This document shows positions 18,101 to 43,735 of a stretch of 64,000 bases of DNA, one piece after another. This DNA comes from an uncultured bacterium (lineage in GTDB: Bacteria; Patescibacteriota; Minisyncoccia; UBA6257; 2-01-FULL-56-20). Within the stretch, counting starts at the first letter, position 1. The number at the start of each line of letters is the position of its first letter. The stretch covers positions 64,001-128,000 of the forward strand of contig CAWJQC010000004.1 in the NCBI GenBank assembly GCA_963844965.1. The letters run 5' to 3'. The notes beneath the pieces were generated by a model. The model worked only from the letters and a program-made list of their open reading frames with translations. It did no database searches and was not told the DNA's origin. The translations under genes and the position numbers were made by a program.

Positions 18101-18904
18101 TCATTTCCCTAGAGCGGAAAACGCCTCGTTGCCGGGATACTTTCTATGAAGGTAATCGTGGATATTAGCTTTGTCATCTGCGGTATATTGGCAGGCGTTT
18201 TTCTTGTCCGTGATTATCTTCAAAATCACGAACCAAACGTCGTCGGCGTACATACCGCCGTCCAGAGCCACCGATTCGAATATTAATTCCCGGCCGCGAT
18301 AGTCGTTGTTCGGAATGCCGAACAGTGTTGTCACCACGGGATGCGACGACGCCCTATAGTTCGTAAGGCCGAGAAGGAATTTCGCGCCACGGTACTTTGA
18401 GGCGGAAGCGACGGCAACGGCGGACTGCAAGGTGTTTTTTGCCGCCCACCACGAGCCGCAGCCATACAACAGAACTGCCTTGGTATATAGAAGATTCGCC
18501 TCTACATACTGATAAAAATCAATCTGCTTGCCGTTTCCTATTTTCTTATCAGCCTTGTTGATGCCCACATCAAGCAGCTTGAAAAAATCCGCGCGCGGGC
18601 CGTCCTCCAATTTAGGCGCGTCCTTTTTTTGTTCGTGCCGAAGCCGGAAAAGCCAGCTCAAAGATAGCCGCAGTTCACCGACGGGATCGTCCGGCTCCAT
18701 TTCCGCGTATTTTCTGAACTTGGCGTCGGCGCAGTTATAATCGCTGTTGTAAAAACAATTCAGGCCCGCCTCAAGCACAGCACGGCTCTCGGGCCTCATC
18801 TCACGGTCCGAGATAGAATCCGCAGAAAAAACCGGGGCAGCCGAACCCGAGAAGAGACACACCGACATAAAAAAGATGAGCATCCTCGTTCTCTTCGCGC
18901 CCAT
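18101..18904 (-). CDS. Secreted hypothetical protein (signal peptide MLIFFMSVCLFSGSAAPVFSA)
   Basis: 267 aa ORF with a Sec-type signal. Confidence 0.5.
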   Translation of the reverse strand: MGAKRTRMLIFFMSVCLFSGSAAPVFSADSISDREMRPESRAVLEAGLNCFYNSDYNCADAKFRKYAEMEPDDPVGELRLSLSWLFRLRHEQKKDAPKLEDGPRADFFKLLDVGINKADKKIGNGKQIDFYQYVEANLLYTKAVLLYGCGSWWAAKNTLQSAVAVASASKYRGAKFLLGLTNYRASSHPVVTTLFGIPNNDYRGRELIFESVALDGGMYADDVWFVILKIITDKKNACQYTADDKANIHDYLHRKYPGNEAFSALGK

Positions 18905-19044
18905 TTTTCTCCTTTCAACGGCAAAATTTCAACGCAAGCCCATCAGCTACGAAGCATTATACGGAAATACTTCATAAAAGTCAAACAAATTGCCAAATTG
19001 CCCCGAGGGCGCAAGAGAACGCGACCAGGATCTCCGGCAAAAAA

Positions 19045-21149
19045 TTACCGTTTTTTGCCTTCGATAATCAACTGCGCAATGTTCTGCGGCACTGGCTCAT
19101 AATGGTCAAATTCCATCGTGAACGCTCCCCTGCCTTGCGTCATGGAACGCAACTCGGTCGCGTAGCCGAACATTTCCGCGAGCGGAACTTTGGCGTCAAT
19201 CACTTTCACGTTGGGCCGGTCGGAAATTTCCTCAATCCTGCCGCGCTTGGAGTTCAAGTTGCCGCTCACCTCGCCCAAAAATTCTATCGGGATGATAACC
19301 TGAAGCTTCATTATCGGCTCCAATATGACCGGCTTCGCGCGCTTCGCCGCTTCCTGCAGGGCGATGGAGCCAGCAATTTTGAAAGCCGCCTCCGACGAGT
19401 CAACTTCATGGAAAGAGCCGTCATAGAGCGAAACTTCAAGGTCGGTCATCGGGTAGTGGGCAACGACCCCCTTACTCAATGCTTCCACCACACCTTTTTC
19501 CACCGCCGGGATGAATTCGTTCGGAATGATCCCTCCCTGATATCGTCTATGAAAACAAATCCCTTGCCGCGCTCCAAGGACTTCACGCGCAGCCAGACAT
19601 GTCCGTATTGTCCGCGGCCGCCGGATTGCCTGATATATTTGCCTTCCGCCTCCGCTTCGCCCATAATCGTTTCTTTATAGGCAACCTGCGGCCGCCCCAC
19701 CGAACCCTCAACACCGAACTCCCGCTTCATCCTGTCAACAATAATTTCCAGGTGCAACTCGCCCATGCCAGAAATAATCGTCTCGCCAGTTTCCAGGTCG
19801 CCCGCCACGCGGAAAGTCGGGTCTTCTTCCGCCAAGCGGTGCAGGGCAATGCTCATTTTTTCCTGGTCGGCTTTCGTCTTCGGCTCAATGCGAATGCCGA
19901 TCACCGGCTCGGGGAATATGATCTTCTCAAGCACTATCGGCGCGTCGGGACTGCAAAGCGTGTCGCCGGTCGTCGTATTCTTCAAACCGACGATCGCCGC
20001 GATATCTCCGGCATGCACTTCCTCCATTTCTTCGCGGTGGTTGGCGTGCATCCGCACCACGCGGCCGACACGTTCCTGCTGGTCCTTCTTGGAATTCAAA
20101 ACGTACGTGCCGCGCTTCAAAACGCCGGAATAATTCCGGAAATAGGTTAAAGTGCCGACGTACGGGTCTGTCGCAACCTTGAAAGCCAGCGCCGAGAACG
20201 GCTCTTCGTCCTTGGGGTGCCGCACGATATCGGCGCCGCTCTTCGGGTCAATGCCCTTAACCGGAGGAAGGTCCGTCGGCGCGGGCAAATATTCCACAAC
20301 CGAGTCAAGCATAAATTGCACGCCTTTGTTTTTCAGGGCCGAACCGCAAAGCACCGGCACAATTTTGTTGGCAATAACGGCTTTGCGCAAAACGCGGCGC
20401 AAATCTTCAATGTCAAGCTCAGTACCATCCAAATACTTGGTCATCAAGGCATCGTCATTGTCCACAATGCGTTCCACAAGTTCATGCCGCGCCTTCTTCA
20501 CGTGCACTTTCATATTTTCCGGCATCGGAATTTCTGTAATCTTTTCGCCATGTTCACCCTCCGAGCCGTACGCCTTTTCGGTTAAGAGGTCTATCATTCC
20601 CACGAATTCACCCTCAAGGCCGATGTTCAACTGCAAAGGCAGTGCGTTCGGCGTGAGCCGTTCTTTGATTGACTGCAAACTTTTTTCAAAGCTCGCACCC
20701 AAGCGGTCAAGTTTGTTAATAAAGCAAATCCGCGGCACGTGGTACTCATCGGCATAGCGCCAGTTCGTTTCCGACTGCGGCTCAACACCTGCGACGCCAT
20801 CAAAGACGACAACCGCGCCGTCCAAAACGCGGAGCGAACGCTTCACCTCCACCGTAAAGTCAATGTGCCCCGGCGTGTCAATCAAATTTATCATATGCTC
20901 AAATTTTTTGTCGCCCTTGCGGTAAGTCGGAATCCAGAACGCCGTCGTTGCGGCGGAAGTAATCGTAATTCCCCTCTCACGTTCCTGCTCCATCCAATCC
21001 ATCACCGTGTCGCCCGTGTGCACCTCGCCGATTTTGTGACTGACGCCCGTATAAAAAAGCACCCGTTCGCTCACGGTGGTTTTGCCGGCATCTATATGGG
21101 CGATGATGCCGATGTTACGGACCTTCTCGACAGGATACATTCTAGGCAT
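19045..21149 (-). CDS. fusA: Elongation factor G, split by a 1-nt deletion in a G-run near 19531-19540
   Basis: ORF-track pieces 19476..21149 (AHIDAGKTT...[10 protein letters not shown]) and 19045..19503 ([18 protein letters not shown]...) are contiguous EF-G. The correct join is ...[20 protein letters not shown]... Confidence 0.9.
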
Positions 21150-23018: not shown

Positions 23019-23729
23019 TCAAAATCCGAAAGACTGCCCCGTGATGAGCGTGAAAAGAAACTGAATGATGGGCGCTATGAGCTGAAATCCGAAGAATACG
23101 AAAATGAGAACGAGAATCATGCCGTAGCGCTCCAGGAAATATGCCGCGCGGTAGCTCGCTTCGGTTTTCGGCAAAACGGCGAATAAAACCTTGGAGCCGT
23201 CAAGCGGCGGAATGGGAACAAGGTTGAATACGGCGAGCAGAATGTTAATAAGAGTTATCACAAAAAAAGCATATAAAATCATAGCAACTGGCGAAGTTAG
23301 TAAAGTTAAAACTAGGTCCGTTCTGCCAGAAAGCACGGCTATAGCCATATTATTTCGCAACATTTCGGATACTGGCAAAAACCGACTAGCAATTCCAAAA
23401 AAAATTGCTATTAACAAGTTTGAAGCTGGCCCAGCAACGGCGATTTTTCCAGCTCCAGAAAGAGGATCGCGCAGATTATTCGGGTTGTATGGCACGGGCT
23501 TCGCCCAACCGAAGACCATGCTGCCTCCGGTCAAAAAATAAAGAGAAACCGGCAGCAGAAACGAGCCGAAGAAATCCAGATGTTTTATGGGATTCAAAGT
23601 CAGCCGCCCGGCGAGCCGCGCCGTGGGGTCGCCCAAGTGCTCGGCGACGACGCCGTGCGAAACCTCGTGGATTACGGCGGACATTATGAGTATCGCGAGC
23701 CAAAATAAAAAAGCGATTGTGGATGTCAT
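23019..23729 (-). CDS. Site-2 protease family (peptidase M50) membrane metalloprotease
   Basis: HEVSHG zinc motif in a TM helix, a further hydrophobic core, LDGSKV motif. Start trimmed to MTSTIAFLFWLAIL. Confidence 0.7.
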   Translation of the reverse strand: MTSTIAFLFWLAILIMSAVIHEVSHGVVAEHLGDPTARLAGRLTLNPIKHLDFFGSFLLPVSLYFLTGGSMVFGWAKPVPYNPNNLRDPLSGAGKIAVAGPASNLLIAIFFGIASRFLPVSEMLRNNMAIAVLSGRTDLVLTLLTSPVAMILYAFFVITLINILLAVFNLVPIPPLDGSKVLFAVLPKTEASYRAAYFLERYGMILVLIFVFFGFQLIAPIIQFLFTLITGQSFGF

Positions 23730-23829
23730 ATCAACAATAATATCCGAAAACCGCGGTCTTTGCCAATTAAGAAAAAACAAATTAAAATGAGCATGTCGCC
23801 CTCGTGGTGAAACTTGCCCTCCCACCTTT

Positions 23830-23902
23830 GTCCCTGTAGCTCAACGGATAGAGCGTGTGGCTTCGAACCACAAGGTTGCAGGTTCAAATCCTGCCAGGGA
23901 CG
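23830..23902 (+). tRNA. tRNA-Arg (anticodon TCG)
   Basis: Hand-folded cloverleaf: acceptor GTCCCTG/CAGGGAC, D-arm GCTC-AACGGATA-GAGC, anticodon arm TGTGG-CTTCGAA-CCACA, T-arm GCAGG-TTCAAAT-CCTGC, discriminator G, no encoded CCA. It is flanked by the inverted repeat CCCACCTTTG / CAAAGGTGGG. Confidence 0.85.
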
Positions 23903-23924
23903 CAAAGGTGGGAGGGTGAAGATA

Positions 23925-23990
23925 TCATATGTGGCTTCGAACCACAGGTTCCAGGTTCGAGTCCTGGCGAGGGCACACACAACATTTCGT
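23925..23990 (+). other. Partial tRNA-Arg(TCG)-like fragment (anticodon arm plus T-arm, no 5' acceptor or D-arm)
   Basis: GTGGC-TTCGAAC-CACAG plus CCAGG-TTCGAGT-CCTGG plus CGAGGGCAC, with no complementary 5' acceptor strand upstream. Confidence 0.5.
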
Positions 23991-24072
23991 ATCGCGGCAT
24001 CGTGGGGGCCGACGCTCTAGCGCGACCCCGAGAGGCCTACCGATACGGAATATCGTCCTCCTTATTTCTCTA

Positions 24073-24324
24073 TTAAGAGCCGGCAAAAATACTTTTGATA
24101 AGGCTTGTAATGCCGCCTGCTATCAGCACGATCACAAAACCGACTGCCGCATACGTAAGGGTCTTCTTCCCTTTCGAAAATTTTTCAGGATCGCCAGCCG
24201 CCGTCATCATTTGAAACCCGCCGACAAGCACCATTATACTTGTGAGCGGCGCTGCAATATCGTAAAAAAGAAATCCCGCCACACTATTCGCGACGGACAC
24301 CAAGCTGCCCCCCCATTCGTACAA
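24073..24324 (-). CDS. Small two-TM membrane protein, TrbC/VirB2 pilin-like (tentative)
   Basis: 83 aa with two hydrophobic helices and a short charged loop; next to the serine recombinase. Confidence 0.3.
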   Translation of the reverse strand: MYEWGGSLVSVANSVAGFLFYDIAAPLTSIMVLVGGFQMMTAAGDPEKFSKGKKTLTYAAVGFVIVLIAGGITSLIKSIFAGS

Positions 24325-24491
24325 TTTGGATCGAACGGATTAAAAAGTTGGTTGGGAGGGCACGCGGCAAAAGCTAACTTCGCGACGGTTAAGGCGCTGA
24401 CTGTTATTAAAATCTTTGTTGTGCGGCGGATAATATGCATATGGATTATTATAGCATACGAGATAGCGTGGCAGAAGCCCATTTTGTTTAG

Positions 24492-25886
24492 CTATTTCTG
24501 CAAGCTCAGAATTTTATTCCTGAACGTCAACTTACTCTTGAAGCAAGATAGCAATTCGCGTTTCTCGACCGTGCTGCCCTTTTTGAGAAGATATTTTGCG
24601 TACGTTTTAAGGTCAATTTCTTTAGTGGCCGCTTTCGATCCTTCTCCCAAGACATCGTTCGCGAATTTGCGATATCGTTCCATCTCGTCTTCGAATTTCT
24701 TCTGCATCCCAATCTCACTGATATCCATCTCGTCAATGATAGCGAGAAGTTGAGCGATCAATTCCTCTTCGCGAATGTATCCGCACTTGCAATCCTTATC
24801 TTTCGAGCGTGAGCATCCATAGTACACGTACCGCGCCGTCGTTCCATCCTTGTGCGCCTTATATTTCTCGCACGCACTGATGCCCGATCCGCATAGGCCG
24901 CACGAGATCAGTTTCGTAAACGAAAATTCCTTTATCTCCGACCTGATGACAAAATCTCGGTGCAGCTGCTCCTGTACTTTATCGAACAGCTCCCGCGAAA
25001 TGATTGCTTCGTGCTTGCCGCTGTACCAGTTACCGCTCTTCAGTGGATACTCAAAGATGCCGCAGTAAAATGGATTTTTGAGGATGATATAAATATTGGA
25101 TAACGAAAGCACTTTCCCATTCTTTGTTCTGAATTTGATTTCCGACTTCAGCCAATGATAAAGCTTCCGGCCCGACCATTGTTCGTCGGCGACTTTCTGG
25201 AGCATTTGCTTGATGACGGGCGCTCGCAGGGGATCAATGATAACTTCACAAGGACGGTCGGTGCTCTTCTCGTTAAGATACCCTGTCGGTGCGATAGACG
25301 GACGCAAACCTTGTTCGCACCGCATCCGTAATCCGCGCTTCACGTTTTCCGATTTGTTATCATTCTCAAGTTTCGCTTGGCTGCACAAAATCATCAACAT
25401 GAATTTCTCGCTCGGCGAGTTCGTGAATTTCTGGCTGAAGGTTCTGATCTCGATAAGTAATTTTTGATCCATCAAGTCCACCAAGCCGCCAAGGTCGCCC
25501 GCGTTGCGGCTCAAGCGATCCGGCGCCCATGTAAGGATACCGTTGAATTCGCCGGAACGAATATCAATAAGCAACTCGTTAAAAATTTTTCGCTGGCCGA
25601 CAGCTTTTGCGGAATGGCTTTCCTTTCTAACTTCGGCGATCTCAAGGTTATCGCGCTCGGCGATTTTCAGCATCTCCTTTATCTGACTATCAATGGAAAG
25701 CACTTGCTGTTCCTCGCTCTCCGTACTTTTCCTCGCATAGAGGCAGTATTTTATTTTTATCGCTTCGGCCTTTGTCGCAGAAACGCCCGACTGATCCCAG
25801 CCCTTTGGTATATTTGTTATTTTCTCCATACCTAAGGGATGCCGCAACGGCGGAAGGAGTCCAGAGCATCCTTGTCGGTAACTCAA
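24492..25886 (-). mobile_element. Large serine recombinase (resolvase catalytic domain, recombinase domain, zinc ribbon)
   Basis: YCLYARKSTESEEQQVLSIDSQ catalytic-Ser motif, large-recombinase middle domain, C-terminal Cys cluster CGLCGSG...YGCSRSKDKDCKCGY. About 590 bp from tRNA-Arg. Confidence 0.8.
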
Positions 25887-26951
25887 AACTCGATATCAGG
25901 CGACGAAGGGGCAAAGAAGGCAAGCAGAGTGATTTCCCCAGCCACCCTCTTTAAGACCATTTATAAACGAGCTATAATAATTCTAATGTTCAGTACCAAT
26001 GCGCGACGGGTAATGTGTGTCGTTGCAGGTTTGATTTTGACTTCGCTCGCTTGGATCGGATGCGCGAATTATTTCAACTGGTACGCCGACACAATCGGTC
26101 CCGTGGCCTGGTTTGGCACCCTGTTCCTATTTGCCGCAGCAGGAGTCGGCGCCGGTCTGCTCTTCGAAAAATCGACCAGGGCTCATTATCAGTCTGCAAT
26201 GACGGCAAATCCCCAACTTAAGGAACGAATGGAAACTACTCTCGGAAGGCGCCTCAAGTTTGGCTACGTGCTTGCCGGGCTTTATGTCGCCTATAGGCTT
26301 TTCGGATATTATCTGTTTTTTGTTCTCGGCTTCTCTTTATCTCCAGCGGCCCATCTTCAACTGATTCTTTCGGCGGTCGTTGAGGCGGTTGTCGCCTTAG
26401 TGTGTTTGTTGCTTTATTGGGAGCGCGGAGAAGATGCCAGTACGGCGAATATAAAAAAGCATTTGCTTGTCTATGTTATTTTCTTCTTCGTTCTCGCAGT
26501 GGTTGACGGTGTCGCACTGCTTGTCTTGAAGCCCGCTTCGGCGGTAGTTCAAACACCCGCAACTCTCGAATCCGCGCTCGAAGCATTTTCCGCCGAGGAA
26601 TTTTCCGGGGCAGCAGCAAAAGGGGCGCAAGCGCTACAAGTAAAAGATATGGTCGGGATAGCTTCGGCGCTCCAGAAGATCAATGCTCATTTTAACCAAT
26701 CATTAACCAGCGCGGATCTTTATGACATGCGGTACACCATTAATTGGGGCTTGAATGAAGCAATTGCATATTACCAATTCGAGGCCGACGATCAATCCAT
26801 TTACGCTCTTCAGCTTACCGAAAATCTTGCGACCAGCAATATTGCCGAGAGTTATTATTCGTTTCCGGCAGGTAGCACCTCCGCTCTAACCGGACAGAGG
26901 TATCTCTTCGTGGCAAACGGATTCAAACGCGGCCGAAACTTTGTTCCTTGA
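25839..26951 (+). CDS. Polytopic membrane protein, hypothetical (likely true start near 25989 MFSTNARRV...)
   Basis: Multiple TM helices; it may continue by frameshift into 27131..27526. Confidence 0.4.
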   Translation: MPQRRKESRASLSVTQNSISGDEGAKKASRVISPATLFKTIYKRAIIILMFSTNARRVMCVVAGLILTSLAWIGCANYFNWYADTIGPVAWFGTLFLFAAAGVGAGLLFEKSTRAHYQSAMTANPQLKERMETTLGRRLKFGYVLAGLYVAYRLFGYYLFFVLGFSLSPAAHLQLILSAVVEAVVALVCLLLYWERGEDASTANIKKHLLVYVIFFFVLAVVDGVALLVLKPASAVVQTPATLESALEAFSAEEFSGAAAKGAQALQVKDMVGIASALQKINAHFNQSLTSADLYDMRYTINWGLNEAIAYYQFEADDQSIYALQLTENLATSNIAESYYSFPAGSTSALTGQRYLFVANGFKRGRNFVP

Positions 26952-27130
26952 TACTGCAGGTGCTTATCTCAACCTACCTATGCAATCTCCGATTATGAAC
27001 GAAGACCTTTATTATCCTTTAACGGCATCTGCTCCTTCGTGGACAGTGTCCGTCCTCTTTACGAGCACTACGGAGGAGGGACAACAGCAAGTTCACGCTC
27101 TATAATACCTTTGACGCGAATACCGAGCGG

Positions 27131-27526
27131 GTGACGACGAGTACTTACGTTCCCTCCGGAAACTATTTGCCCTTGTCACCACAATCGCCATCCGTGTCGA
27201 TGAACGTTGCTCCGCCTCCCTCAAATTCCTCCCTGAAAATAATTTCTCCTGCCAACGGACAGAAATTGAAGCAGGGGTCAACATACACGATTAGCTGGCA
27301 GTCGTCTGGTGATTTCAATTTTGTCGTCGGGAATATCGTCGCTCCCGTTCCGGGCGAAGGGGGTGTAGGAATATTCCAAGCCCCCGCGACTTCAAGCCGC
27401 TATAGCTGGACCGTGCCGACCGGCTTCCCACCTGGGATGTATAAACTGGGGCTTGCGGGCAGCGATCAAGATTTTGTGAATCATAATTTTGCCTCGTCCA
27501 GTGTTTCAATCTACATCATTCCGTAG
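27131..27526 (+). CDS. Hypothetical extracellular beta-rich domain protein (possibly the C-terminal part of the preceding gene)
   Basis: 131 aa, Ig-like-looking composition (ISPANGQKLKQGSTYTISWQSSGDFNFVV). Confidence 0.3.
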   Translation: MTTSTYVPSGNYLPLSPQSPSVSMNVAPPPSNSSLKIISPANGQKLKQGSTYTISWQSSGDFNFVVGNIVAPVPGEGGVGIFQAPATSSRYSWTVPTGFPPGMYKLGLAGSDQDFVNHNFASSSVSIYIIP

Positions 27527-27599
27527 TAAAACTTATTTAAGATGAGACGCGGCCTTGGGACACCCTTTTAGTGCCTCATTTGTCTCATTTGCATAAAAA

Positions 27600-28140
27600 A
27601 GCCTTATTTTATGGGCATCGATTTTTCGGAATGAGACACTGCTTTGTATAAATCGGACACGTCCAGAATGGCATTTCTGTGTCCGATTTGTCCGATTTGC
27701 CTCCAAAATGTTACACACCACAAAGTGCAAAAGTTGTGTAACATTTGTAACATTTTGAGGAAAAGCGGGGGGTTGGAACATGGGAATGGGACACGAAAAA
27801 TCGACCTCTTGTGTCCCATTTGTTCCATTTTGTAGAAATGAGCCCTGCTGCGTTACGTTTGCCGCGTTACATTCCGAACGCTCAGAAATCTTTGATTTAT
27901 CTACCTAACAGGACAGCTCCCCAAAAAAGTGCCGCCCTCTCAACTTTTCACATCGCGTTACATTTGTTACATGTTACATTTGATCCCTCCGAAAACCGCG
28001 ACCGTGAGCCTTCCAAGGGAAATTTGGGGTCGTCCTCAAAAACCCTTATACTGATTGCACAGGGAAAGTCCGCATCCGCGAGGGGGCACAACAAAACTAT
28101 ATCTTTTTAGTTACCGCACGGTTGTCGTCGAGACGCGTGA
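27600..28140. repeat. AT-rich non-coding region with iteron-like direct repeats (GT[A/T]ACATTTG) and hairpins
   Basis: Motifs tgtaacatttgtaacatttt, gtgtccgatttgtccgatttg, gtcccatttgttccattttg, cgttacatttgttacatgttacatttg; palindrome TGTTACACACC...GTTGTGTAACA. Confidence 0.5.
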
Positions 28141-30256: not shown

Positions 30257-30488
30257 AAGCCACCTCCTTTTCCAGATTCAACCAACTGCTTCCACTCTAC
30301 CAAAAAGCGGGAAAAAATCCAGAACCTGTCCAAGTCGTTGCGGAAAGACGTTTTTGGATATAAAATAATAAAACCGGCCGCGAAGCCCGACATAATCAGC
30401 GCCATTCGGCTTAATAAAAATCCGCCCATAGCTCCCACCTTCGCCGAGGCTTCGGCGGGCAAGCAACTGGCCCCGCACCAAAATTTAT

Positions 30489-30561
30489 CCGCGCGTAGCT
30501 CAACTGGCAGAGCAGCTCCCTCTTAAGGAGACGGTTGCAGGTTCGACTCCTGCCGCGCGGA
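30489..30561 (+). tRNA. tRNA-Lys (anticodon CTT)
   Basis: Acceptor CCGCGCG/CGCGCGG, D-arm GCTC-AACTGGC-AGAGC, anticodon loop CTCTTAA (stem with one G.A mismatch), T-arm GCAGG-TTCGACT-CCTGC, discriminator A. Confidence 0.75.
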
Positions 30562-31231
30562 CTGGAAAAATTAAGGATAAATTTGGTGCGGGTTAGACGC
30601 CGCAGCTCTCCTCTTACAACCGCGTAGCGAGGCGAGGATAAAAATCGCCAATTTTTATTTTCGCCGAGCGAGCGGGTGGCGAAACAGGTTTTCGCAGGAA
30701 AAGGTTCCAGGTTCAAGTCCCTGCTTGCCAGCAGGCAGGCAGGTGGGCGGACACAGAATCGAGGATCTCCGGCAGCTCACCTCTTTTTTATTGACAACAC
30801 ACACGTTATTTTTTAATCTAAACAGTAGCGTCTGTTAAAAATTAAAAATCGGGAGCGGCAATGTATAGTCTGTTTGGAAGATTCGAGCGGATAGGCGAAG
30901 CGAAATATTCCGCCGAGGAAATCTGTCTTTTCCGGTTAATCGACCTTCTATTACATCGCGGATGGAGATTCCTGGGATGCCTGTGGAACGGCAAAAAATA
31001 TAAGATAAAAATAAAAAATCTCCGCACCGGCAAAAAACGCTCTTTCAAATCAGGACGCCCATATTGGCTCTCAAGCGATGCCGACGGAAATTTATTCTAA
31101 CCCCACCGAATGAACAGGTGGGTTTTTGTTTTGGGGTAAATTTGGTATAATATGTGCGCGATGTGCTTGGCTCATATTGGGAAAACGTGGCGCCGGACAC
31201 CGAACAAATTCCGTTCTATGTATAAATCATT

Positions 31232-34179: not shown

Positions 34180-36625
34180 CTACTGCTCCATATGACCGAC
34201 AAGGGTGCATGTATAAAAGTTACCAGTGCATTGGGATGAATTAGTAACATCCCAACAAGTTGAATAAGTCTCCAGCGCGCCACTACAAGGAGTGGTATTA
34301 GCGCATGAACTGTTGTAGTAACGAATATAAGTCATATACTGCGGGCAGAAGTAAATCGGCGTCCCGCCTGTAACTTTAAGAGTGCCGGGAATGATGACGT
34401 TGCCGTTTGCTAGAACCTGTATAGCTGCTCCGGTTGTAGTAGCTGTACCAGTATTCGGCATACTGCCGCCAATACCGACGTTGCCGGCATAGTTGATGAC
34501 TAATTTATTTGATTCTGCCGCACTAGGATAATTTCCCACCATAAGCATGGCGCCCTGATTAACATCGCCCACATCGAGCAGCACCGCATCCGCATTGGTC
34601 GTAGCCGCGGTGCCGTAGAACGTGCCGGTATTGGTATCCCTGTTCTGCTCGAACTGGGTGCCGTAATCACCGGTGTTATACAAGAACGAATAGGTGGGAT
34701 TACTAAAATCGCTGTACATCTCAAGGCCGGGGCCGGTACCGGCAGTATTTGAATATGCATAAAATTGATAGTTGGCGGGCGCCGCCGCTCCCACCCCGAT
34801 TCCGGAGGTGAATAAACCTCCTCCAGTTACCGTCAGTTTCTGGGTCGGCGCCGTATTCCCGATGCCGACGTTGCCGGAGGAATTCCAAATACCGGTGCCA
34901 GGCATCGTAACGTTGCCAGTAAAGGTCGGGCTCGCTAAAAGCGCCGCTCCGGTAACCTGCGCTACCCCGTAGTCACCAGATGCCGCCACCACGGCTCCGG
35001 TTCCGCCAAATACCGAGGTGACGCCGCCGCTCGGCCAAGCCGTGATGCAATTCGCCCCGGAGATGCAATATTGAGTGGCGTTTGCGGTAACCGTTGACGT
35101 ACAGAGCGTACCCTCCGCCTGAGTTTGTGAAATACCCACCGTAGCCGCCGGAGTTGGTGGCTAATCCATAAACTCCTACGCCGTTACCTGCCGCTGACTG
35201 TCCGGCAACCCCTACCCAGTAAGAAGCGCCGACCTGTCCGCCGAGAATCCCATTCGTTGTGGCGTTGCTATTATTTCCCGTTACCGAGCCGACCCATGAT
35301 GAATTGACGGCGCTCGTGAAACTGCCTACGCCAGCAACAACCAACGGATATGCCGGCGTCGTCGTCCCGATGCCGACGTTGCCGTTCGTGATGGAGAAAT
35401 ATGGACCACCCCCCATCCCAGTGCCAAGCGCCAAATTGAGGCCATAAGATTGTGACGTCAAATCAGCGTATGTAAATGCTCCGTTGCTGGTGGTGAACTT
35501 TATCCAATCTACGTTTGACCCGTTTGTATTGTCTAGCCGTAAGGTAGACGTACTTCCACTCTGAATATCAAGTTTTGCGACCGGCGCCGTGTTCCCGATG
35601 CCGACGTTGCCGTTGTTATTTATAAACAAGGCGGGTGACGCGCCGGATGAGTCAGAACCCTGAGTCAAAAAGGCCATTGGAGAACCGTTACTGCCGATCC
35701 GGGCCCAGTTCGCAACTGCTGCCGGTCCAAGCTGTAGCAAGGCATCGGTACCGTTAGATGTCAAGTCAAACTTGGCGAATTTTGACCCGTTCACGACATG
35801 CAACGTCGTTGCCGGCGACGCCGTCCCGATGCCGACGTTGCCGCCATATGCAAGCGTCATTATTTGGGAGTACCAACTGCTGGGGTTCTGATACCCAATC
35901 GTCAAGACCGAATTATCTGACGCTGGTGCAAAAACATACCCATTATTACTGCCAGCCATATCGCGGAGCTTGAAGGCTCCAAAGACATCAAGTGTATTTT
36001 GTGGTGACGGCGTCCCGATGCCGACCGAGCCCGAGAAATACCCGCCGCCGTAGACGGAGAGGGCCTGCGGCAAGTTGCTGGCGGAGGATGTGGTAACGCC
36101 CAGAGCGGAAGAAACAAACACACTGTGGGGGAACCCGTAGGGAACGCCGGAATCGGCCTCTAGAGAATTGAACACCGCGGGCGTGACATAGCCGGCGTTG
36201 ACGGTCCCGTTAAAATTGCCGTGGATCGTGCCGTTCACGTCAAGCTGGTAGCCAGGCGACGCCGTCCCGATGCCGACAGAACCGTCATTGCGCACGACAA
36301 GTATGGGCGACGAATTCGGATAAAGGATCTTCAATGTGTAATTCGCGGCATCAGCGGACGAAGAAGCAACGATGAGGAGTTTGGTTTCCGGCAGAGGCGT
36401 GGGCGTACCAACGCCCAGATTCCCAGCCGCATTAGTGCTTACCGCTCCCGAACCGAAACCGGGGGTGGGAGGAGGAGAGGCAAACGCGTAGTAGGTAGTA
36501 GGTAGTAGGTAGTAGGTAGTAGCGAGAATGACGAAAAACAAAACGTGCGGCGCAAAACTCGGACGCACACCGTAAAACTTGCGGCGGAGCTTTTGCTGTT
36601 TTTGGAACAAATCTGCGTCCATCAT
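34180..36625 (-). CDS. Giant Sec-secreted fibre-like surface protein 1 (about 815 aa; frameshift near 35100-35160 joins ORF-track pieces 34973..36625 and 34180..35139)
   Basis: Signal peptide MMDADLFQKQQKLRRKFYG...VLFFVILATTYYLLPTTYYAFA; dozens of GNVGIGT(A/T)xP repeats; Cys-rich C-terminal domain; N-terminus and a ~150-aa internal block identical to the 40555..43680 paralog. Confidence 0.7.
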
Positions 36626-36859
36626 AATAATTTACTACCTACTACCTACTACCTACCGCTTTTAATTGTTTCGGGGCGACAATCTCATAGCTTTATTATA
36701 TAAGAACAGGGAAAGATATGTAGAAAGGGGTGTGCATAGGCGCGAAAACTGCCCGAGCGGCGGCCGCAAATTTCCCGGCCATCCGGGATATAAAAAAGGC
36801 TCTCGCGAGGAATTGCGAATTGCGAATCCTCACGAGAGCCAAACATACCGGAGGGGAAT

Positions 36860-37567
36860 CTAGTGGCCGACGATGGGTGGAAGACCGGCCTGGTAGCGGC
36901 GGTAATTCCCCATGTACCGGTCCGCCACCTGAATATTCCGCACGCCGTACCAAACGTGAACCGTGCTAAGGTAACCGGCAAAGCCGATGCTTGCGAGACG
37001 CTCGGCCCTCACCATTCTCCTGCCCCACTTATGTCCCCCCCATTTATGCTCTGTCCAGCGAGGGATAGCCGAAGAAAAGTAGGAAAAAACGACATCGAAC
37101 GCCGAGGCGCTCCCTAACACCCCAGCAATATTGCGATTGCCAAATTGGGTATATAGGGAGTCCGTCTCACGGGGGCCCTGCTGGCTAGCATAACGCAAAC
37201 CGTTGCTAGCGACGTACTCTGGAATAAAGGGTGGCGTAGAGAGGGAACGGAACGTGGTTATGTTGTCAAACGCAAATGGCCCGCGCTCAACACCCCACAT
37301 CCAAGCCTGTGTCCTCTCAAGCTTGCTCTGGTCCCGGTTTAACTTGCCGCCAGGCCAAGCCATAACCCTAAACACCTTATCAAAGGTTGATGGCTCAACC
37401 GGTGCCGCCGAACGCAAGGGCGAGATAGCGGGTGCGAGTGCCGGTGCAGACGCGGCGGATGCCGCCACGGGCGTTGACGCTAAGGGCAGTTCGGTAAGAC
37501 CGTCTGCCGGAAACGCGCGAACCGAAATGATTGTCAAGATTGTCAACAAAAGCACCAGTCGCTTCAT
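36860..37567 (-). CDS. Secreted hypothetical protein (start at MKRLVLLLTILTIISVRAFPA)
   Basis: Signal peptide plus Ala/Pro-rich linker; the ORF-track upstream extension overlaps a palindrome. Confidence 0.45.
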   Translation of the reverse strand: MKRLVLLLTILTIISVRAFPADGLTELPLASTPVAASAASAPALAPAISPLRSAAPVEPSTFDKVFRVMAWPGGKLNRDQSKLERTQAWMWGVERGPFAFDNITTFRSLSTPPFIPEYVASNGLRYASQQGPRETDSLYTQFGNRNIAGVLGSASAFDVVFSYFSSAIPRWTEHKWGGHKWGRRMVRAERLASIGFAGYLSTVHVWYGVRNIQVADRYMGNYRRYQAGLPPIVGH

Positions 37568-38045
37568 AACGACCTCCTCAAAAAGATTTAATTTAATTGC
37601 GCAAAGCAATTTGGCTACTCCCAAGAATAACCAAATCGCTTTGCGCAAGCAATATATTCATTTTTCAAGATACTTGCCTATCTATGCTAATTATAGCACA
37701 AATAAACAACCTGTCAACCCCCACCTTTTTCCGAAAAGGTGGGGGTCAAGTGGCCGCGGCGGCTGACCCGCTGAAGCGACGATACCCTACAACTCATAAA
37801 TCTCATCTCGCTTGCCTATTTTGAGTATATAAATTGCGCCATTTCTAACGTCAAATACCAACCTATAATCGCCCACGCGAAATCTGAACTCCCCGCCGCG
37901 GTTGTCAGCCAAACGCTTGGCAAACCTCAACGGATTATCCTCTGACGCATAAATGCGCATCTTCTTTGCTTTGCGATGCGCACTTGAACTTCTCTCGGCA
38001 GGGATTCCAACTGCTTAGCCGCCCGCTTGGCATAGAAAATCTTCG

Positions 38046-38222
38046 TTACAATCCCAACTTCTTAAACAGCTTATCCTGCGATATAGTTTTTTTTGCCTTG
38101 ATTTCTTTTCTCGCTTCGCGGACATCCAAAATATGCGCGAGGTAGCCAAGCAGGGCGCCGAAGCGAGCATCCGTTTTCCTCAAACGCTCGTATTCTTGTT
38201 TTGGTATAGTAACCGTGGTCAT
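38046..38222 (-). CDS. Antitoxin-like small protein (58 aa, MTTVTIPKQEYERLRKTDARFGALLGYLAHILDVREARKEIKAKK...), copy 1; its partner toxin is decayed
   Basis: Identical to the antitoxin at 40066..40242. The downstream RelE-like ORF in this copy has lost its ATG (CGT) and carries a 5-nt insertion. Confidence 0.5.
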   Translation of the reverse strand: MTTVTIPKQEYERLRKTDARFGALLGYLAHILDVREARKEIKAKKTISQDKLFKKLGL

Positions 38223-38345
38223 ATAAGTGCATTATAGTAAACCGGCGGCGGATATCAACCCCCACACCAAACGAGGACTTTCCGGGTCCCGCGCCGAAGG
38301 CGCATGTCCTCGTTAGGATTCTCGATAGGAATTGCCGGTGCGACA

Positions 38346-38564
38346 TTACAACAGAGAAACAAACTGCTCCGGTGCAAGTTCGGCATCACGTAGTATTTTG
38401 CGAAGCAGAGAAACATCCACTGCCTTATAGTTCGGCACCGTTACGGATTTCTTGCCGGGACAGGACAAACGAATATGGCTGCCGCGCTGGCGAACTTCGC
38501 GATAACCGAACTTTGCCAAAGCAGAAATAATCTTGCGGCCGGAGATAACAGGCAGTTTAGACAT
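38346..38564 (-). CDS. hicA: HicA-family toxin (mRNA interferase)
   Basis: 72 aa; REVRQRGSHIRLSCPGKKSVTVPNY, the HicA GSH motif. Confidence 0.65.
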   Translation of the reverse strand: MSKLPVISGRKIISALAKFGYREVRQRGSHIRLSCPGKKSVTVPNYKAVDVSLLRKILRDAELAPEQFVSLL

Positions 38565-38570
38565 GACGAG

Positions 38571-38840
38571 CTATACGGCAATTGTATGTAAGCTGATTTC
38601 CTGCGGCTTGTAATCCTGCAAAATTTGCCTGGACTGCTTTTCTTCCAAAATAAGCATTATAACCTCTCGGATATTGCGGAGCGCCTCGTCAATCGTCTTG
38701 CCCTGCGCATAACATCCTTCAAAAACAGGGCATTCAACAACATAAAACCCGCTCTCTCCTTTTTCGGCGAGGAGCGGCAATTGCCGGCCGCGGCCTATAA
38801 ATTTTGCTCTTGTTCTTGCCATAGTGAAATAATACCACAA
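38571..38840 (-). CDS. hicB: HicB-family antitoxin (UPF0150)
   Basis: GFYVVECPVFEGCYAQGKTIDEALRNIREVIMLILEE, HicB N-terminal RNase-H-like fold signature. Confidence 0.6.
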   Translation of the reverse strand: MWYYFTMARTRAKFIGRGRQLPLLAEKGESGFYVVECPVFEGCYAQGKTIDEALRNIREVIMLILEEKQSRQILQDYKPQEISLHTIAV

Positions 38841-39101
38841 CCCTTTAGGCGGTCAAGTGAAATTGGTAGCCAAAATCGCCCTGCCACACTAAAACCCCTT
38901 TAAATTCTTCCAGCAAGCAAACTGCCCGCGCTTTTCCGCGCGGGCTTTTTTTAAATCCCCGCTGAATACCCAGCCGAGACGTGGCGGAGACGAAACAGTG
39001 AGATATCTTTCTTTCCTCGCTTCGCAAGAAATCTTGCCGTTCCTCCGCGAGCCAATATCTACGGCCCCCGGCTGGAGGGATGAAATGAAATGGACGCTCA
39101 A

Positions 39102-39296
39102 CTATTTCTGTTTAATCTCTCTAATACCGAGGTCCCGGCAGATTTTCTTTGCCAAAAATTCATTGATTTCGCTATGGCGGGGCACCGTAGACGAACGTCT
39201 GACTTTGGGGTTAAAAAAGACGCTGTGCTTGGCGCCTTCCCGAACAAAAACACACCCCTCATGCTCAATGTGGCAAATTAAAACAACTCGCTTCAT
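39102..39296 (-). CDS. HicA-like toxin, second copy (divergent)
   Basis: 64 aa; ...STVPRHSEINEFLAKKICRDLGI resembles the HicA C-terminus; paired with the upstream HicB-like gene. Confidence 0.45.
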   Translation of the reverse strand: MKRVVLICHIEHEGCVFVREGAKHSVFFNPKVRRSSTVPRHSEINEFLAKKICRDLGIREIKQK

Positions 39297-39299
39297 TCA

Positions 39300-39545
39300 T
39301 CAAACTGTAAGCAGCTGCCGCGTCAACTTCTGTTTGCCGGCCTCGGCATCAGCCAGCGCCCGGTTGGTTTCCAAAATTAGCCGAAGCGCTTCTTTAAGAT
39401 TTTCTTTTACTTCCTTCACGCTTTTCCCTTGAGTATTTACCCCGGGCACTTCCTCTATCCAGCCGACATACCATTTACCGCTTTTTTTAAACACGGCTGT
39501 AAATTTGTATTTCATGACTGCCATACATTTAAGATAATCCCAAAG
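39300..39545 (-). CDS. HicB-like antitoxin, second copy (start MAVMKYKFTAVFKKSGKWYVGWIEEVPGVNTQGKSVKEVKENLKEALRLILE)
   Basis: UPF0150/HicB signature; trimmed from ORF 39300..39626. Confidence 0.55.
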   Translation of the reverse strand, partial: LWDYLKCMAVMKYKFTAVFKKSGKWYVGWIEEVPGVNTQGKSVKEVKENLKEALRLILETNRALADAEAGKQKLTRQLLTV

Positions 39546-39811
39546 CATGTAGCTGTCAACTCCTCTCAACTCCCGAGAAAACCCAGATGGCGAGCTTCTC
39601 CCTGCCTCGATAGGGTAGAAAAACAACTCAAACAGCCCAACGAAATTCGTTGGGCTGGATTTTTTTAACCAATGGCGTCACCCGCCGTTGAATTCCTTAA
39701 TATCTTTTGGCGAACACCGTTTAAACTACCTGTCAACCCCCACCTTTTTTCCGAAAAGGCGGGGGTCAAGCGGCCGCGGCGGCTGACCCGCTGAGCTGAA
39801 GCGACGATACC

Positions 39812-40066
39812 CTACAACTCATAAATCTCATCTCGCTTGCCTATTTTGAGTATATAAATTGCGCCATTTCTAACGTCAAATACCAACCTATAATCGCCCA
39901 CGCGAAATCTGAACTCCCCGCCGCGGTTATCAGCCAAACGCTTGGCAAACCTCAACGGATTATCCTCTGACGCATAAAAGCGCATCTTCTTCGCGATGCG
40001 CATTTGAACTTCTCTCGGCAGGGATTCCAACCGCTTAGCCGCCCGCTTGGCATAGAAAATCTTCAT
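39812..40066 (-). CDS. RelE/ParE-family toxin
   Basis: 84 aa; FYAKRAAKRLESLPREVQMRIAKKM...EFRFRVGDYRLVFDVRNGAIYILKIGKRDEIY, typical RelE/ParE. Confidence 0.7.
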   Translation of the reverse strand: MKIFYAKRAAKRLESLPREVQMRIAKKMRFYASEDNPLRFAKRLADNRGGEFRFRVGDYRLVFDVRNGAIYILKIGKRDEIYEL

Positions 40067-40242
40067 TACAATCCCAACTTCTTAAACAGCTTATCCTGCG
40101 ATATAGTTTTTTTTGCCTTGATTTCTTTTCTCGCTTCGCGGACATCCAAAATATGCGCGAGGTAGCCAAGCAGGGCGCCGAAGCGAGCATCCGTTTTCCT
40201 CAAACGCTCGTATTCTTGTTTTGGTATAGTAACCGTGGTCAT
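40066..40242 (-). CDS. Antitoxin partner of the RelE/ParE toxin (58 aa; stop overlaps the toxin ATG as TAATG)
   Basis: Not in the ORF track (under 60 aa). MTTVTIPKQEYERLRKTDARF...; translationally coupled to the toxin. Confidence 0.55.
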   Translation of the reverse strand: MTTVTIPKQEYERLRKTDARFGALLGYLAHILDVREARKEIKAKKTISQDKLFKKLGL

Positions 40243-43680: not shown

Positions 43681-43735
43681 AATAATTTACTATCTACTAC
43701 TTACTACCTACCACCTACTACCTACTACCTACTAC

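What the first reader, a model, noticed from the sequence alone, without database searches (positions are those of the whole stretch)
23816..25886. tRNA-Arg, adjacent 3'-tRNA fragment and large serine recombinase: likely integrated-element boundary
A complete tRNA-Arg(TCG) at 23830-23902 is flanked by the inverted repeat CCCACCTTTG/CAAAGGTGGG. About 22 nt downstream is a second anticodon-arm plus T-arm of a tRNA-Arg(TCG) paralog that lacks its 5' half. Some 590 bp further on is a 464-aa large serine recombinase preceded by a TrbC/VirB2-like small membrane protein. Partial tRNA duplications next to integrases are the hallmark of site-specific integration at tRNA genes.
Basis: partly seen in the sequence, partly recalled or inferred. 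Interest (0 to 1): 0.55.

Follow-up and report, generated by a model that had tools for sequence, protein, structure and literature searches.

The report
Recombinase island beside a split tRNA
A 4.1-kb mobile element driven by a large serine recombinase sits at the 3' end of a tRNA-Arg gene in a Paceibacterota (CPR) genome, and that target tRNA is not a leftover fragment but a whole gene split in its D-loop by a 108-nt hairpin-bracketed cassette carrying a second, working tRNA-Arg.

Summary

**Right:** there is an integrated element. Three-way comparison with two relatives gives nucleotide-level ends: attL ...GGCGAGGGCAC|ACACAACATTTCG at ~23976, and attR ...CCGCGAGGGGGCAC|AACAAAAC at ~28089. 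The ~4.1-kb element carries a pilin-like gene, a 445-aa large serine recombinase (LSR), two surface-type genes and a conserved non-coding distal module. The same element sits at tRNA-Lys(TTT) and tRNA-Lys(CTT) in other hosts. Across the LSR family, 23 of 42 loci have a tRNA within 250 nt of the LSR stop codon.

**Wrong:** the "3' fragment" is not an att scar.
- Its first 15 nt lie upstream of tRNA-1, at 23798-23812.
- The closest relative (L165) has the same gene intact, 70/70 identical.
- The window gene is interrupted by a 108-nt cassette: a 14-bp inverted repeat bracketing a different tRNA-Arg(TCG).

Similar tRNA-in-tRNA nesting occurs at the window's tRNA-Lys and in three other assemblies. 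tRNA targeting by serine integrases is rarely reported, and I found no description of the nested cassettes. How the cassettes insert is unknown.

The parts
23760..23788 (+). Sigma-70-like promoter (TTGCCA, 17-nt spacer, TAAAAT). It places transcription start about 7-9 nt downstream, at the 5' end of the split tRNA.
   Evidence: 10 of 12 consensus matches; 4 sites found in the region against 0.4 expected. This is a consensus match only, and function is inferred.
23798..23812 (+). 5' part (15 nt, GCCCTCGTGGTGAAA: acceptor 5' strand, positions 8-9, D-stem 5' strand) of the resident 'type B' tRNA-Arg(TCG).
   Evidence: Identical to the first 15 nt of the intact tRNA-Arg of L165. When the cassette is deleted in silico, ARAGORN calls a canonical tRNA starting exactly here.
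23813..23920 (+). 108-nt cassette that replaces the 2 nt 'TG' of the D-loop. It comprises left arm 23817-23830, tRNA-Arg(TCG) 'type A' 23830-23903 and right arm 23903-23916; the outer ends CTTG...TGAA extend the palindrome.
   Evidence: Alignment to L165 shows a single insertion with 0 mismatches outside it. The arms belong to a dispersed palindrome family.
23921..23975 (+). 3' part (55 nt: D-stem 3' strand, anticodon arm TCG, variable region, T-arm, acceptor 3' strand, discriminator A) of the resident type B tRNA-Arg.
   Evidence: Rfam tRNA 30.2 bits; 55/55 identical to L165.
23971..23978 (.). attL junction: shared core GGGCAC at the tRNA 3' end (GGCGAGGGCAC|ACACAAC). Element DNA starts at about 23976-23977.
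   Evidence: Three-way alignment A3. The same junction follows tRNA-Lys(TTT) in L081 and tRNA-Lys(CTT) in L083.
23976..24033 (.). Conserved left-end arm of the element (P' side): CACACAACATTTCGTATCGC...CTAGCGCGACC..GAG.
   Evidence: 86-89% nucleotide identity to L081, L082 and L083.
24073..24324 (-). Cargo gene: 83-aa T4SS-pilin-like small membrane protein, in a variable slot between the left end and the recombinase.
   Evidence: Pfam PF18895, 1.4e-11. Absent from L083 and replaced by an unrelated 235-aa gene in L081.
24492..25829 (-). Large serine recombinase (LSR-1, 445 aa from the ATG), converging on the tRNA.
   Evidence: Pfam Resolvase, Recombinase and Zn_ribbon_recom; PHROG integrase, 1.4e-64; closest solved structure is the SPbeta integrase; catalytic R33/S35 and four Cys invariant.
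25839..26951 (+). Cargo gene p370 (no known family). Only its first ~34 codons and the region between it and the recombinase are shared with relatives.
27131..27526 (+). Cargo gene: 131-aa protein with weak, sub-threshold Ig-like domain matches.
   Evidence: Big_7 and Kre9_KNH, both below Pfam's cut-off. L083 carries an Ig-domain cargo gene too.
27542..28089 (.). Conserved distal module of the element, ending in the P arm GTCCGCATCCGCGAGGGGGCAC (28068-28089). Contains GTTACAT iteron-like repeats at 27957-27981. Probably non-coding DNA sites.
   Evidence: 80-88% nucleotide identity to L081 and L083, higher than in the recombinase gene. The p99 ORF is only 67% identical at protein level where the DNA is 88% identical. 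No RNA-fold signal, z = 0.05.
28079..28092 (.). attR junction: CGAGGGGGCAC|AACAAAAC. Homology to L081 and L083 stops after 28089.
   Evidence: Alignment A2; coordinates.
30422..30766 (+). Second nested locus. It contains: old tRNA-Lys 5' part 30422-30434; hairpin segment 30435-30471; bracket arms 30472-30489 and 30576-30592 around the intact tRNA-Lys(CTT) 30489-30562; decayed pieces of the old tRNA-Lys (T-arm 30703-30720, 3' end plus shared flank 30743-30766).
   Evidence: The old pieces match the intact tRNA-Lys of L165 and its 3' flank CACAGAATCGAGGAT.

Best explanation
Two separate events overlap at this locus.

**(1) An LSR-driven integrative element.** A ~4.1-kb element (about 23976-28089) is integrated exactly at the 3' end of the resident tRNA-Arg(TCG) gene.
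- The recombinase recognises the T-arm/acceptor end of a tRNA as attB and exchanges strands within or next to GGGCAC. The tRNA sequence is therefore left unchanged.
- The element's far arm carries a short mimic of a tRNA 3' end.
- The element has a conserved backbone (left arm, recombinase, distal non-coding module) and variable cargo of small surface or membrane proteins.
- It has moved between distantly related Paceibacterota hosts and uses several tRNAs that share a similar T-arm and 3' end.

**(2) A tRNA-bearing cassette inside the target tRNA.** Independently, the resident tRNA-Arg gene was hit in its D-loop by a 108-nt palindrome-bracketed cassette containing a complete tRNA-Arg(TCG) of another sequence type.
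- The cassette has no promoter of its own. It is transcribed from the resident gene's promoter, with the resident gene's first 15 nt as leader.
- The bracket probably forms a ~20-bp helix with the acceptor stem that isolates the new tRNA for processing.
- The new copy supplies tRNA-Arg(TCG), and the split resident gene is a very young pseudogene.

**Shown:** the boundaries, the split, the intact allele in L165, recurrence elsewhere, and the family-wide tRNA association.
**Inferred:** recombinase activity, the exact crossover position, expression and processing, and how the cassette inserted.
For: **Element**
- Synteny in relatives is M50 | tRNA-Arg -> tRNA-Lys -> p893. In the closest relatives M48 is also a host gene between them.
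- Backbone homology to L081 and L083 covers 23947-24033, 24482-25940 and 27542-28090.
- Homology breaks precisely at the tRNA 3' end and after GGGGGCAC, with unrelated host DNA beyond.
- The three copies sit at three different tRNAs.
- The recombinase is 84% identical to L083's, while the hosts' M50 proteins are 54% identical.
- 23 of 42 non-redundant family loci have an opposite-strand tRNA within 250 nt of the recombinase stop, and 30 of 42 within 1.5 kb.
- A second recombinase, 36% identical, abuts tRNA-Pro in the same window.
- The LSR domains and catalytic residues are intact.

**Split tRNA**
- 15 + 55 nt are identical to the intact L165 gene, with one insertion.
- ARAGORN calls a canonical 72-nt tRNA-Arg once the cassette is removed.
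- The promoter is positioned for the old 5' end.
- The MFE fold is dominated by the bracket plus acceptor helix, z = -5.0.

**Recurrence**
- In L100 tRNA-Pro(CGG) and L054 tRNA-Pro(GGG), the old halves carry compensatory acceptor-stem differences from the nested copy.
- The window's tRNA-Lys, and L165's tRNA-Arg and tRNA-Lys, are also nested.
- These come from independent assemblies of different projects.
Against: - No excised or circular form and no unoccupied attB with the same downstream flank was found.
- The element has no recognisable replication, transfer or excision-factor gene, so it may be defective or dependent on a helper.
- The split resident tRNA shows no decay at all. That fits a very recent hit, but it also fits continued function.
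- The cassette's insertion mechanism is unknown: there is no target-site duplication and no transposase nearby.
- The assembly has at least one frameshift error (EF-G), so single-base details are uncertain.
Confidence: 0.72

Rival explanations
1. **Classical tRNA-island scar.** Integration at the tRNA duplicated its 3' part. tRNA-1 is then the reconstituted gene, and the fragment is the displaced or duplicated att copy marking the island boundary.
For: A complete tRNA followed by a partial same-anticodon copy and an integrase is the textbook picture. The two share an identical 17-nt anticodon arm.
Against: - The partial copy has its own 5' part upstream of tRNA-1 and equals an intact gene in L165.
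- tRNA-1 is a coherent gene of a different type, with its own complementary acceptor strands (7/7 within each gene, 5-6/7 across them).
- Only 27 nt lie between the two copies, so no island lies between them.
- The real element repeat is a 9-11-nt core at 28079-28089.
- Serine recombinases do not need or create long direct repeats (established knowledge of the family).
Confidence: 0.04
2. **Intron-like or two-in-one gene.** The cassette is removed at the RNA level, for example by RNase P/Z release of tRNA-1. The two outer pieces are then held together by the 14-bp bracket and rejoined, or act as a two-piece tRNA, so that both tRNA-Arg species are made.
For: - All four stems of the outer tRNA are intact and 70/70 identical to a functional-looking orthologue.
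- The promoter sits at the outer gene's 5' end.
- The bracket would keep the halves together, resembling the split tRNAs of Nanoarchaeum.
Against: - No bulge-helix-bulge motif: the stem is a perfect 14-bp duplex, and the only irregularity is at one level on both strands (sequence inspection).
- No group I or group II intron signal in Rfam at E <= 10.
- The insertion removes part of the D-loop, including the position of the conserved GG.
- In the other nested cases the outer gene is clearly broken. L100 Pro lacks its anticodon and has a second insert, L054 Pro has a degraded anticodon stem, and the window's old tRNA-Lys is in pieces.
- No bacterial pathway for this is known.
Confidence: 0.08
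3. **By-product of the recombinase.** The nested cassette comes from the serine recombinase element itself, through aberrant recombination at pseudo-att sites or capture of a neighbouring tRNA on imprecise excision. The split tRNA and the island would then be one event.
For: - In both the window and L100 the recombinase element abuts a split or rearranged tRNA.
- The window and L100 each carry two nested loci.
- The bracket's right arm (GGTGGGAGGG) loosely resembles tRNA 3' ends that the family targets.
Against: - The cassette junctions (GTGAAA|CTTG... and ...TGAA|GATATC) share nothing with the GGGCAC core or with the element arms.
- L054 and L165 have nested tRNAs with no such recombinase adjacent to them.
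- About 40 other family loci abut intact tRNAs, and 2 of ~45 is close to the background frequency of nested tRNAs in this sample (about 7 of ~170).
Confidence: 0.06
4. **Assembly artefact.** The tRNA-in-tRNA arrangement is a chimera of two strain alleles (type A and type B), or a fold-back error in a long-read assembly.
For: - The contig has at least one indel error (EF-G frameshift).
- A suspicious perfect 159-nt inverted repeat exists elsewhere in the window.
Against: - The same architecture, with different sequences, occurs in independent assemblies from different projects: L100 (JGI), L054 and L165 (NCBI MAGs).
- The junctions are clean, and the bracket belongs to a palindrome family that is also found without tRNAs.
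- A strain chimera would not create a 14-bp inverted repeat.
Confidence: 0.05

Closest known systems
Large serine integrases of temperate phages and integrative elements (SPbeta SprA/YokA, TP901-1, A118, phiC31, Bxb1)
   Same: Same three-domain protein (Resolvase catalytic domain with the Y-x-R-x-S motif, Recombinase domain, zinc ribbon). The gene sits at one end of the element, and attL and attR share only a short core.
   Different: The target is the 3' end of tRNA genes, and this holds across a large CPR-wide clade. Mageeney et al. 2020 (PMC7192596) say S-Ints were 'not known for targeting tRNA genes' and found such use in only 14 of 297 elements. The element is tiny (4.1 kb), with no phage or conjugation genes. 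The closest solved structure matches only at E = 6e-11.
Tyrosine-integrase genomic islands at tRNA genes (the P4/Islander model)
   Same: The element abuts a tRNA gene, the tRNA stays functional on integration, the integrase gene lies next to the att site, and the far end carries a copy of tRNA 3' sequence.
   Different: The enzyme family is different. The crossover is at or beyond the last base of the tRNA rather than in the anticodon or T loop. The far-end copy is only a ~9-11-nt mimic, not a displaced 20-45-nt fragment.
Split and intron-containing tRNA genes of Archaea (Nanoarchaeum split tRNAs; non-canonical introns of Thermoproteales)
   Same: A tRNA gene is interrupted at a loop (D-loop or anticodon loop) by a sequence whose ends pair into a long helix.
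   Different: The organism is a bacterium, there is no bulge-helix-bulge motif, the insert is itself a complete tRNA of the same anticodon, and in most cases the outer gene is decaying. This looks like gene replacement, not splicing.
REP/MITE-like palindromic repeats and hairpin-targeting insertion sequences (IS200/IS605, IS110/IS1111)
   Same: Short GC-rich inverted repeats related in sequence occur at several sites and in several genomes, with variable loop content. Insertion is into the loops of hairpin-forming DNA, without target duplication.
   Different: No transposase was identified. Bracket sequences differ between cassettes. The cargo is a functional tRNA that matches the gene it interrupts.
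Group I introns in tRNA genes of Patescibacteria (PMC13011429)
   Same: tRNA genes are interrupted in the same phylum, and standard tRNA finders miss the interrupted gene.
   Different: There is no intron catalytic core (Rfam). The insert is 108 nt and consists of a tRNA plus a stem. That paper reports no inverted-repeat, nested or pseudogene cases.

Membership tests
Large serine recombinase (serine integrase) | N-terminal resolvase catalytic domain with the nucleophilic serine | tested here: met
   PF00239, 2.2e-19. YARKS motif, with R33 and S35 invariant in 10 family members.
Large serine recombinase (serine integrase) | C-terminal Recombinase domain and zinc-ribbon domain | tested here: met
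   PF07508, 1.3e-14, and PF13408, 8.8e-8. C310, C313, C339 and C347 invariant. Aligns over residues 33-393 to the SPbeta integrase 9dxh.
Large serine recombinase (serine integrase) | Element ends (attL and attR) share only a short core, and the recombinase gene lies next to one end | tested here: met
   The core is GGGCAC (up to CGAGGG(GG)CAC) at 23971-23976 and 28084-28089, from three independent insertions.
Large serine recombinase (serine integrase) | Catalyses attP x attB integration, with excision needing a directionality factor | not testable with these tools
   No free attP was found in viral contigs. No recognisable RDF among the cargo.
Classical tRNA-gene genomic island (Islander definition) | Intact tRNA gene at one end of the element | tested here: met
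   L081 and L083 have intact tRNA-Lys at the junction. In the window the junction tRNA is complete in sequence but split by a separate insertion.
Classical tRNA-gene genomic island (Islander definition) | Displaced tRNA fragment (tens of nt) as a direct repeat at the other end | tested here: not met
   No second copy of the T-arm plus acceptor with <= 3 mismatches. There is only a 9-11-nt 3'-end mimic at 28079-28089.
Classical tRNA-gene genomic island (Islander definition) | Tyrosine integrase | tested here: not met
   The only recombinase present is of the serine family.
tRNA intron (group I/II, or archaeal BHB type) | Intron catalytic core, or a bulge-helix-bulge motif at the exon-intron junctions | tested here: not met
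   No intron family in Rfam at E <= 10 over 23600-24300. The predicted structure is a continuous 14-bp helix stacked on the acceptor stem, with no staggered 3-nt bulges.
tRNA intron (group I/II, or archaeal BHB type) | Removal restores a functional tRNA | tested here: inconclusive
   In-silico removal gives a canonical cloverleaf, but 2 nt of the D-loop are replaced. Outer genes are broken in L100, in L054 and at the window's tRNA-Lys. No RNA data are available.
MITE / REP-like palindromic element | Terminal inverted repeats | tested here: met
   14 bp perfect, 17-18 bp imperfect.
MITE / REP-like palindromic element | Target-site duplication | tested here: not met
   Comparison with the uninterrupted allele in L165 shows that 'TG' is replaced and nothing is duplicated.
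MITE / REP-like palindromic element | Multiple dispersed copies with related ends | tested here: inconclusive
   Related arms CCCCCAC(A)CC...GG(T)GTGGGGG occur at window 37718, 39737, 38258 and 40280, L100 12290 and 12594, L112 14166, L001 5738 and L059 11467. Some window copies lie inside 2-kb segmental repeats, and other cassettes (L054, L018, L165 Lys) have unrelated brackets.

The most novel reading that the evidence does not exclude
Paceibacterota may carry a previously undescribed way of turning over tRNA genes. Promoter-less, hairpin-bracketed tRNA cassettes would insert into the loops (D-loop, anticodon loop) of the resident tRNA gene of the same anticodon, take over its promoter and replace it, generation after generation (type A inside type B in the window; type B next to type A remnants in L166). 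Such cassettes would be mobile units, moved either by an unidentified hairpin-loop-targeting enzyme or through a processed pre-tRNA intermediate. They could be exchanged between lineages: the tRNA-Arg allele is 70/70 identical between the window and L165, whose ribosomal protein S7 genes are only 83% identical.
Probability: 0.25. Interest if true: 0.8.

Novelty: new variant of a known kind. Interest (0 to 1): 0.62.

Why it matters
1. **Serine integrases and tRNA genes.** Serine integrases are prized genome-engineering tools, and they are thought to avoid tRNA genes. A large, highly conserved CPR clade (65-72% identity over thousands of proteins) that systematically lands at tRNA 3' ends, without damaging the tRNA, changes that picture. 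It also offers natural att sites with a defined logic. In addition it shows how tiny genomes with almost no recognisable mobile elements still shuttle surface-protein genes.
2. **Nested tRNA genes.** tRNA-in-tRNA nesting means that standard annotation misreads these loci. The interrupted gene is invisible to tRNA finders, and its tail looks like an att scar. If the cassettes are mobile, they would be a new route of tRNA gene replacement in bacteria.

Tried and rejected
- **Repeats of the fragment.** Full-length or T-arm repeats of the fragment elsewhere in the window: none. The 18-nt T-arm match at 30703-30720 first looked like the island's far end, but it is a remnant of the old tRNA-Lys.
- **Extent of the island.** I first took 28.1-30.4 kb (p274, M48 peptidase) to be part of the island. 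Closer relatives show that M48 is a host gene next to M50.
- **Exact-protein look-ups.** Look-ups of the recombinase and of M50 with my chosen start codons found nothing.
- **P' motif.** A scan across 80 metagenome loci found the P' motif only in the closest relatives, so more distant family members use other arm sequences.
- **Viral-contig scans.** Scans for the predicted attP junction and for the P' arm were empty. A scan for the 5' part of tRNA-1 hit only an unrelated phage tRNA-Arg(TCT).
- **Far ends of other family elements.** Searching with a 16-nt tRNA-end probe was unreliable.
- **Partial tRNAs in relatives.** Rfam at gathering threshold found only complete tRNAs there.
- **Cargo and distal module.** PHROG and Pfam gave nothing for the cargo. 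The distal module shows no RNA-structure signal.
- **Ideas dropped.** I considered reading the bracket as a permuted tRNA, a primer-binding-site-like tRNA 3'-end complement, or an integron attC. None fits the sequences.
- **Literature.** Four searches and two papers read gave no description of nested tRNA cassettes.
Full report
**Observation**

ARAGORN and Rfam confirm tRNA-Arg(TCG) at 23830-23903 (74.5 bits).

Rfam's tRNA model gives a second hit just above its gathering score (30.2 bits, model positions 9-63) at 23915-23967. Its anticodon arm is identical to that of tRNA-1. The neighbouring ORFs are a T4SS-pilin-like protein and a large serine recombinase with all three Pfam domains. The recombinase most likely starts at the ATG at 25829, giving 445 aa, like the identical database entry P0001.

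**Host and synteny**

The window comes from a Paceibacterota/Parcubacteria (CPR) genome.

- In relatives the order is S7-S12-M50 | tRNA-Arg(TCG) -> tRNA-Lys(CTT) -> a RecG-like gene. The two tRNAs are often only 60-120 nt apart.
- In the closest relatives (L165, L166) an M48 peptidase gene lies between them.
- In the window the two tRNAs are 6.6 kb apart.

**The integrated element**

The two closest recombinase relatives are P0002 (91%, locus L081) and P0003 (84%, locus L083). They sit in different places: L081 next to tRNA-Lys(TTT), between DnaJ and RNase III/SMC genes, and L083 next to tRNA-Lys(CTT) in the M50 neighbourhood.

DNA homology between the window and these loci is confined to three blocks: 23947-24033, 24482-25940 and 27542-28090. 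Three-way alignments show that homology begins exactly at the tRNA 3' end and ends after a tRNA-3'-end-like sequence, with unrelated host DNA beyond:

- Left end: window ...CCTGGCGAGGGCAC|ACACAACATTTCGTATCGC; relatives ...CCTGGTGGGGGCAC|ACACAAC...
- Right end: ...AGTCCGCATCCG(C/T)GAGGGGGCAC|

The element is therefore about 23976-28089 (4.1 kb). attL and attR share only GGGCAC (up to CGAGGG(GG)CAC). This is what a serine integrase is expected to leave, and the tRNA sequence is untouched.

The hosts are far more diverged than the element. M50 is 54% identical between the window and L083, while the recombinase is 84% identical. That argues for horizontal movement.

The backbone consists of the left arm, the recombinase with its upstream region, and a ~550-bp distal module. 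That module has GTTACAT repeats and is better conserved at DNA level (80-88%) than the recombinase gene. Its ORFs are less conserved as protein than as DNA, and it has no RNA-fold signal. I read it as non-coding sites. The cargo is variable and of unknown function: a pilin-like protein, weak sub-threshold Ig-like matches, and a 370-aa protein of no known family.

**Family-wide pattern**

The recombinase belongs to a very large CPR family: more than 8000 hits, many of them 65-72% identical.

- In 42 non-redundant metagenome loci with enough sequence, 23 have a tRNA on the opposite strand within 250 nt of the recombinase stop, and 30 within 1.5 kb. The tRNAs include Arg-GCG/CCT/TCG/TCT, Lys, Val, Gln, Leu and Trp.
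- At roughly 45 tRNAs per Mb, my estimate from general knowledge, chance would give well under 1%.
- A second recombinase in the window, only 36% identical, abuts tRNA-Pro(GGG) in the same geometry.
- Mageeney et al. 2020 (PMC7192596) state that serine integrases were not known to target tRNA genes. They found such use in 14 of 297 elements and asked for experimental proof. This clade is therefore a notable variant.
- The protein passes the sequence-level tests for a large serine recombinase. Activity is untested.

**The 'fragment' is a split gene**

Relatives carry two sequence types of tRNA-Arg(TCG) at this locus. tRNA-1 is type A. The 'fragment' is type B.

- The first 15 nt of a type B gene (GCCCTCGTGGTGAAA) lie upstream of tRNA-1 at 23798-23812.
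- Deleting about 23813-23920 in silico makes ARAGORN call a canonical 72-nt tRNA-Arg(TCG) that starts at 23798, with all four stems intact.
- The closest host relative found, L165 (M50 71-72% identical), has this gene uninterrupted. The 15 + 55 nt are identical, and the window differs only by a 108-nt segment that replaces 'TG' in the D-loop.
- The best promoter match (TTGCCA, 17-nt spacer, TAAAAT, ending at 23788) is positioned for the 5' end of the old gene. The promoter-less cassette would therefore be transcribed through it.
- The predicted fold is dominated by the bracket stacked on the acceptor stem of tRNA-1 (z = -5.0).

The recombinase element abuts the 3' end of this split resident gene, not tRNA-1.

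**Recurrence of nesting**

The same architecture appears at other loci and in independent assemblies:

| Locus | Nested tRNA | State of the outer gene |
|---|---|---|
| Window | tRNA-Lys(CTT) 30489-30562, bracket CCCGCACCAAAATTTATC / GATAAATTTGGTGCGGG | Decayed pieces of an older tRNA-Lys that match L165's intact tRNA-Lys and its 3' flank |
| L100 | tRNA-Pro(CGG), 13-bp bracket | Old halves 23/25 and 36/38 identical to the nested copy; the differences are compensatory acceptor-stem changes |
| L054 | tRNA-Pro(GGG) | Likewise |
| L100 | tRNA-Arg (type B) | Lies between the ends of a Lys-like tRNA, and the recombinase element abuts that outer 3' end |
| L165 | tRNA-Arg and tRNA-Lys, both bracketed | Lie among older tRNA pieces |
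| L166 | type B tRNA-Arg | Followed by a type-A-like 3' remnant |

Outer genes are usually broken, which favours replacement over splicing.

The bracket arms of the window's Arg cassette and of the L100 Pro cassette are related to each other: CTTG-CCCTCCCACC...GGTGGGAGGG-TGAAG versus CCTG-CCCCCACACC...GGTGTGGGGG-TGAAG. They are also related to palindromes that enclose short loops or unrelated sequence in the window, L100, L112, L001 and L059. Other cassettes have unrelated brackets. There is no target-site duplication.

The window's and L165's type B tRNA-Arg are identical, while S7, M50 and M48 are 83, 73 and 68% identical at DNA level, and other type B pairs are 75-85% identical. This hints at horizontal exchange of the tRNA itself.

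**What remains unknown**

- How the cassettes insert.
- Whether the bracket is a processing stem, a mobile-element end, or both.
- Whether the split type B gene still yields any product.
- Whether the 4.1-kb element is autonomous.

Rivals are scored in the rivals section: a classical att scar, intron-like processing, a by-product of the recombinase, and an assembly artefact. The L165 allele and the independent recurrences argue against the first and the last.

**Verdict**

The 'tRNA fragment' is a newly recognised kind of arrangement: a resident tRNA gene interrupted by a hairpin-bracketed replacement tRNA.

Noticed in passing
window 60085-62208: A second large serine recombinase (533-aa ORF 60085-61686, minus strand, 36% identical to LSR-1) runs into the 3' end of tRNA-Pro(GGG) 60095-60166. 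It is enclosed by a perfect 159-nt inverted repeat (60163-60321 / 62050-62208), whose outer ends include the last 4 nt of the tRNA. An XRE-type HTH ORF (~61762-61965) lies inside. This could be a real TIR-bounded or invertible unit, or a fold-back assembly artefact.
   Followed up: partly
window 19476-21149 (and ~18900-19476): EF-G is split by a single frameshift: the reading frame changes near ...DDIREGS / [10 protein letters not shown]..., while relatives have one 701-aa gene. This is most likely an indel error of the assembly, so single-base differences in homopolymers elsewhere should be treated with care.
   Followed up: partly
window 62655-62716: Fluoride riboswitch (crcB motif), 47.8 bits against a gathering score of 34.
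   Followed up: no
window 37718-37745, 39737-39765, 38258-38317, 40280-40346: GC-rich palindromes with arms CCCCCAC(A)CC...GG(T)GTGGGGG, related to the tRNA-1 bracket. They lie inside ~2-kb direct repeats (37.7-40.3 kb). Similar palindromes occur in L100, L112, L001 and L059.
   Followed up: partly
L165 1540-1630 and 3700-3940: The closest relative's tRNA locus is a graveyard of tRNA pieces. An older tRNA-Lys 5' part is interrupted by a CCCCGAC/GTCGGGG palindrome cluster, and there are at least three copies (one inverted) of a T-arm/acceptor fragment ...TCCCTCCGGGGGCA downstream of tRNA-Arg.
   Followed up: partly
window ~25845-25875; many loci L088-L126: A conserved motif, GATG(A/C)CGCAAC...GTCCAGAG, lies just upstream of the recombinase start codon across the family. 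It partly resembles a tRNA 3' end and may be a regulatory or recombinase-binding site.
   Followed up: no
L114 ~18135-18335; L014, L010, L109, L144: Several other tRNAs are followed 100-170 nt downstream by a ~21-nt copy of their own 3' end. These look like classical att-type repeats or remnants of earlier elements.
   Followed up: no
window 34800-43750: Dense families of direct repeats (units of ~228-255 nt containing CCGATGCCGACGTTGCC) and GTAGTAG/CTACTAC runs, presumably within large repetitive surface-protein genes.
   Followed up: no
L100 3141-3266: LOOT RNA (RF03000), 77.8 bits, in a recombinase-bearing Paceibacterota contig.
   Followed up: no
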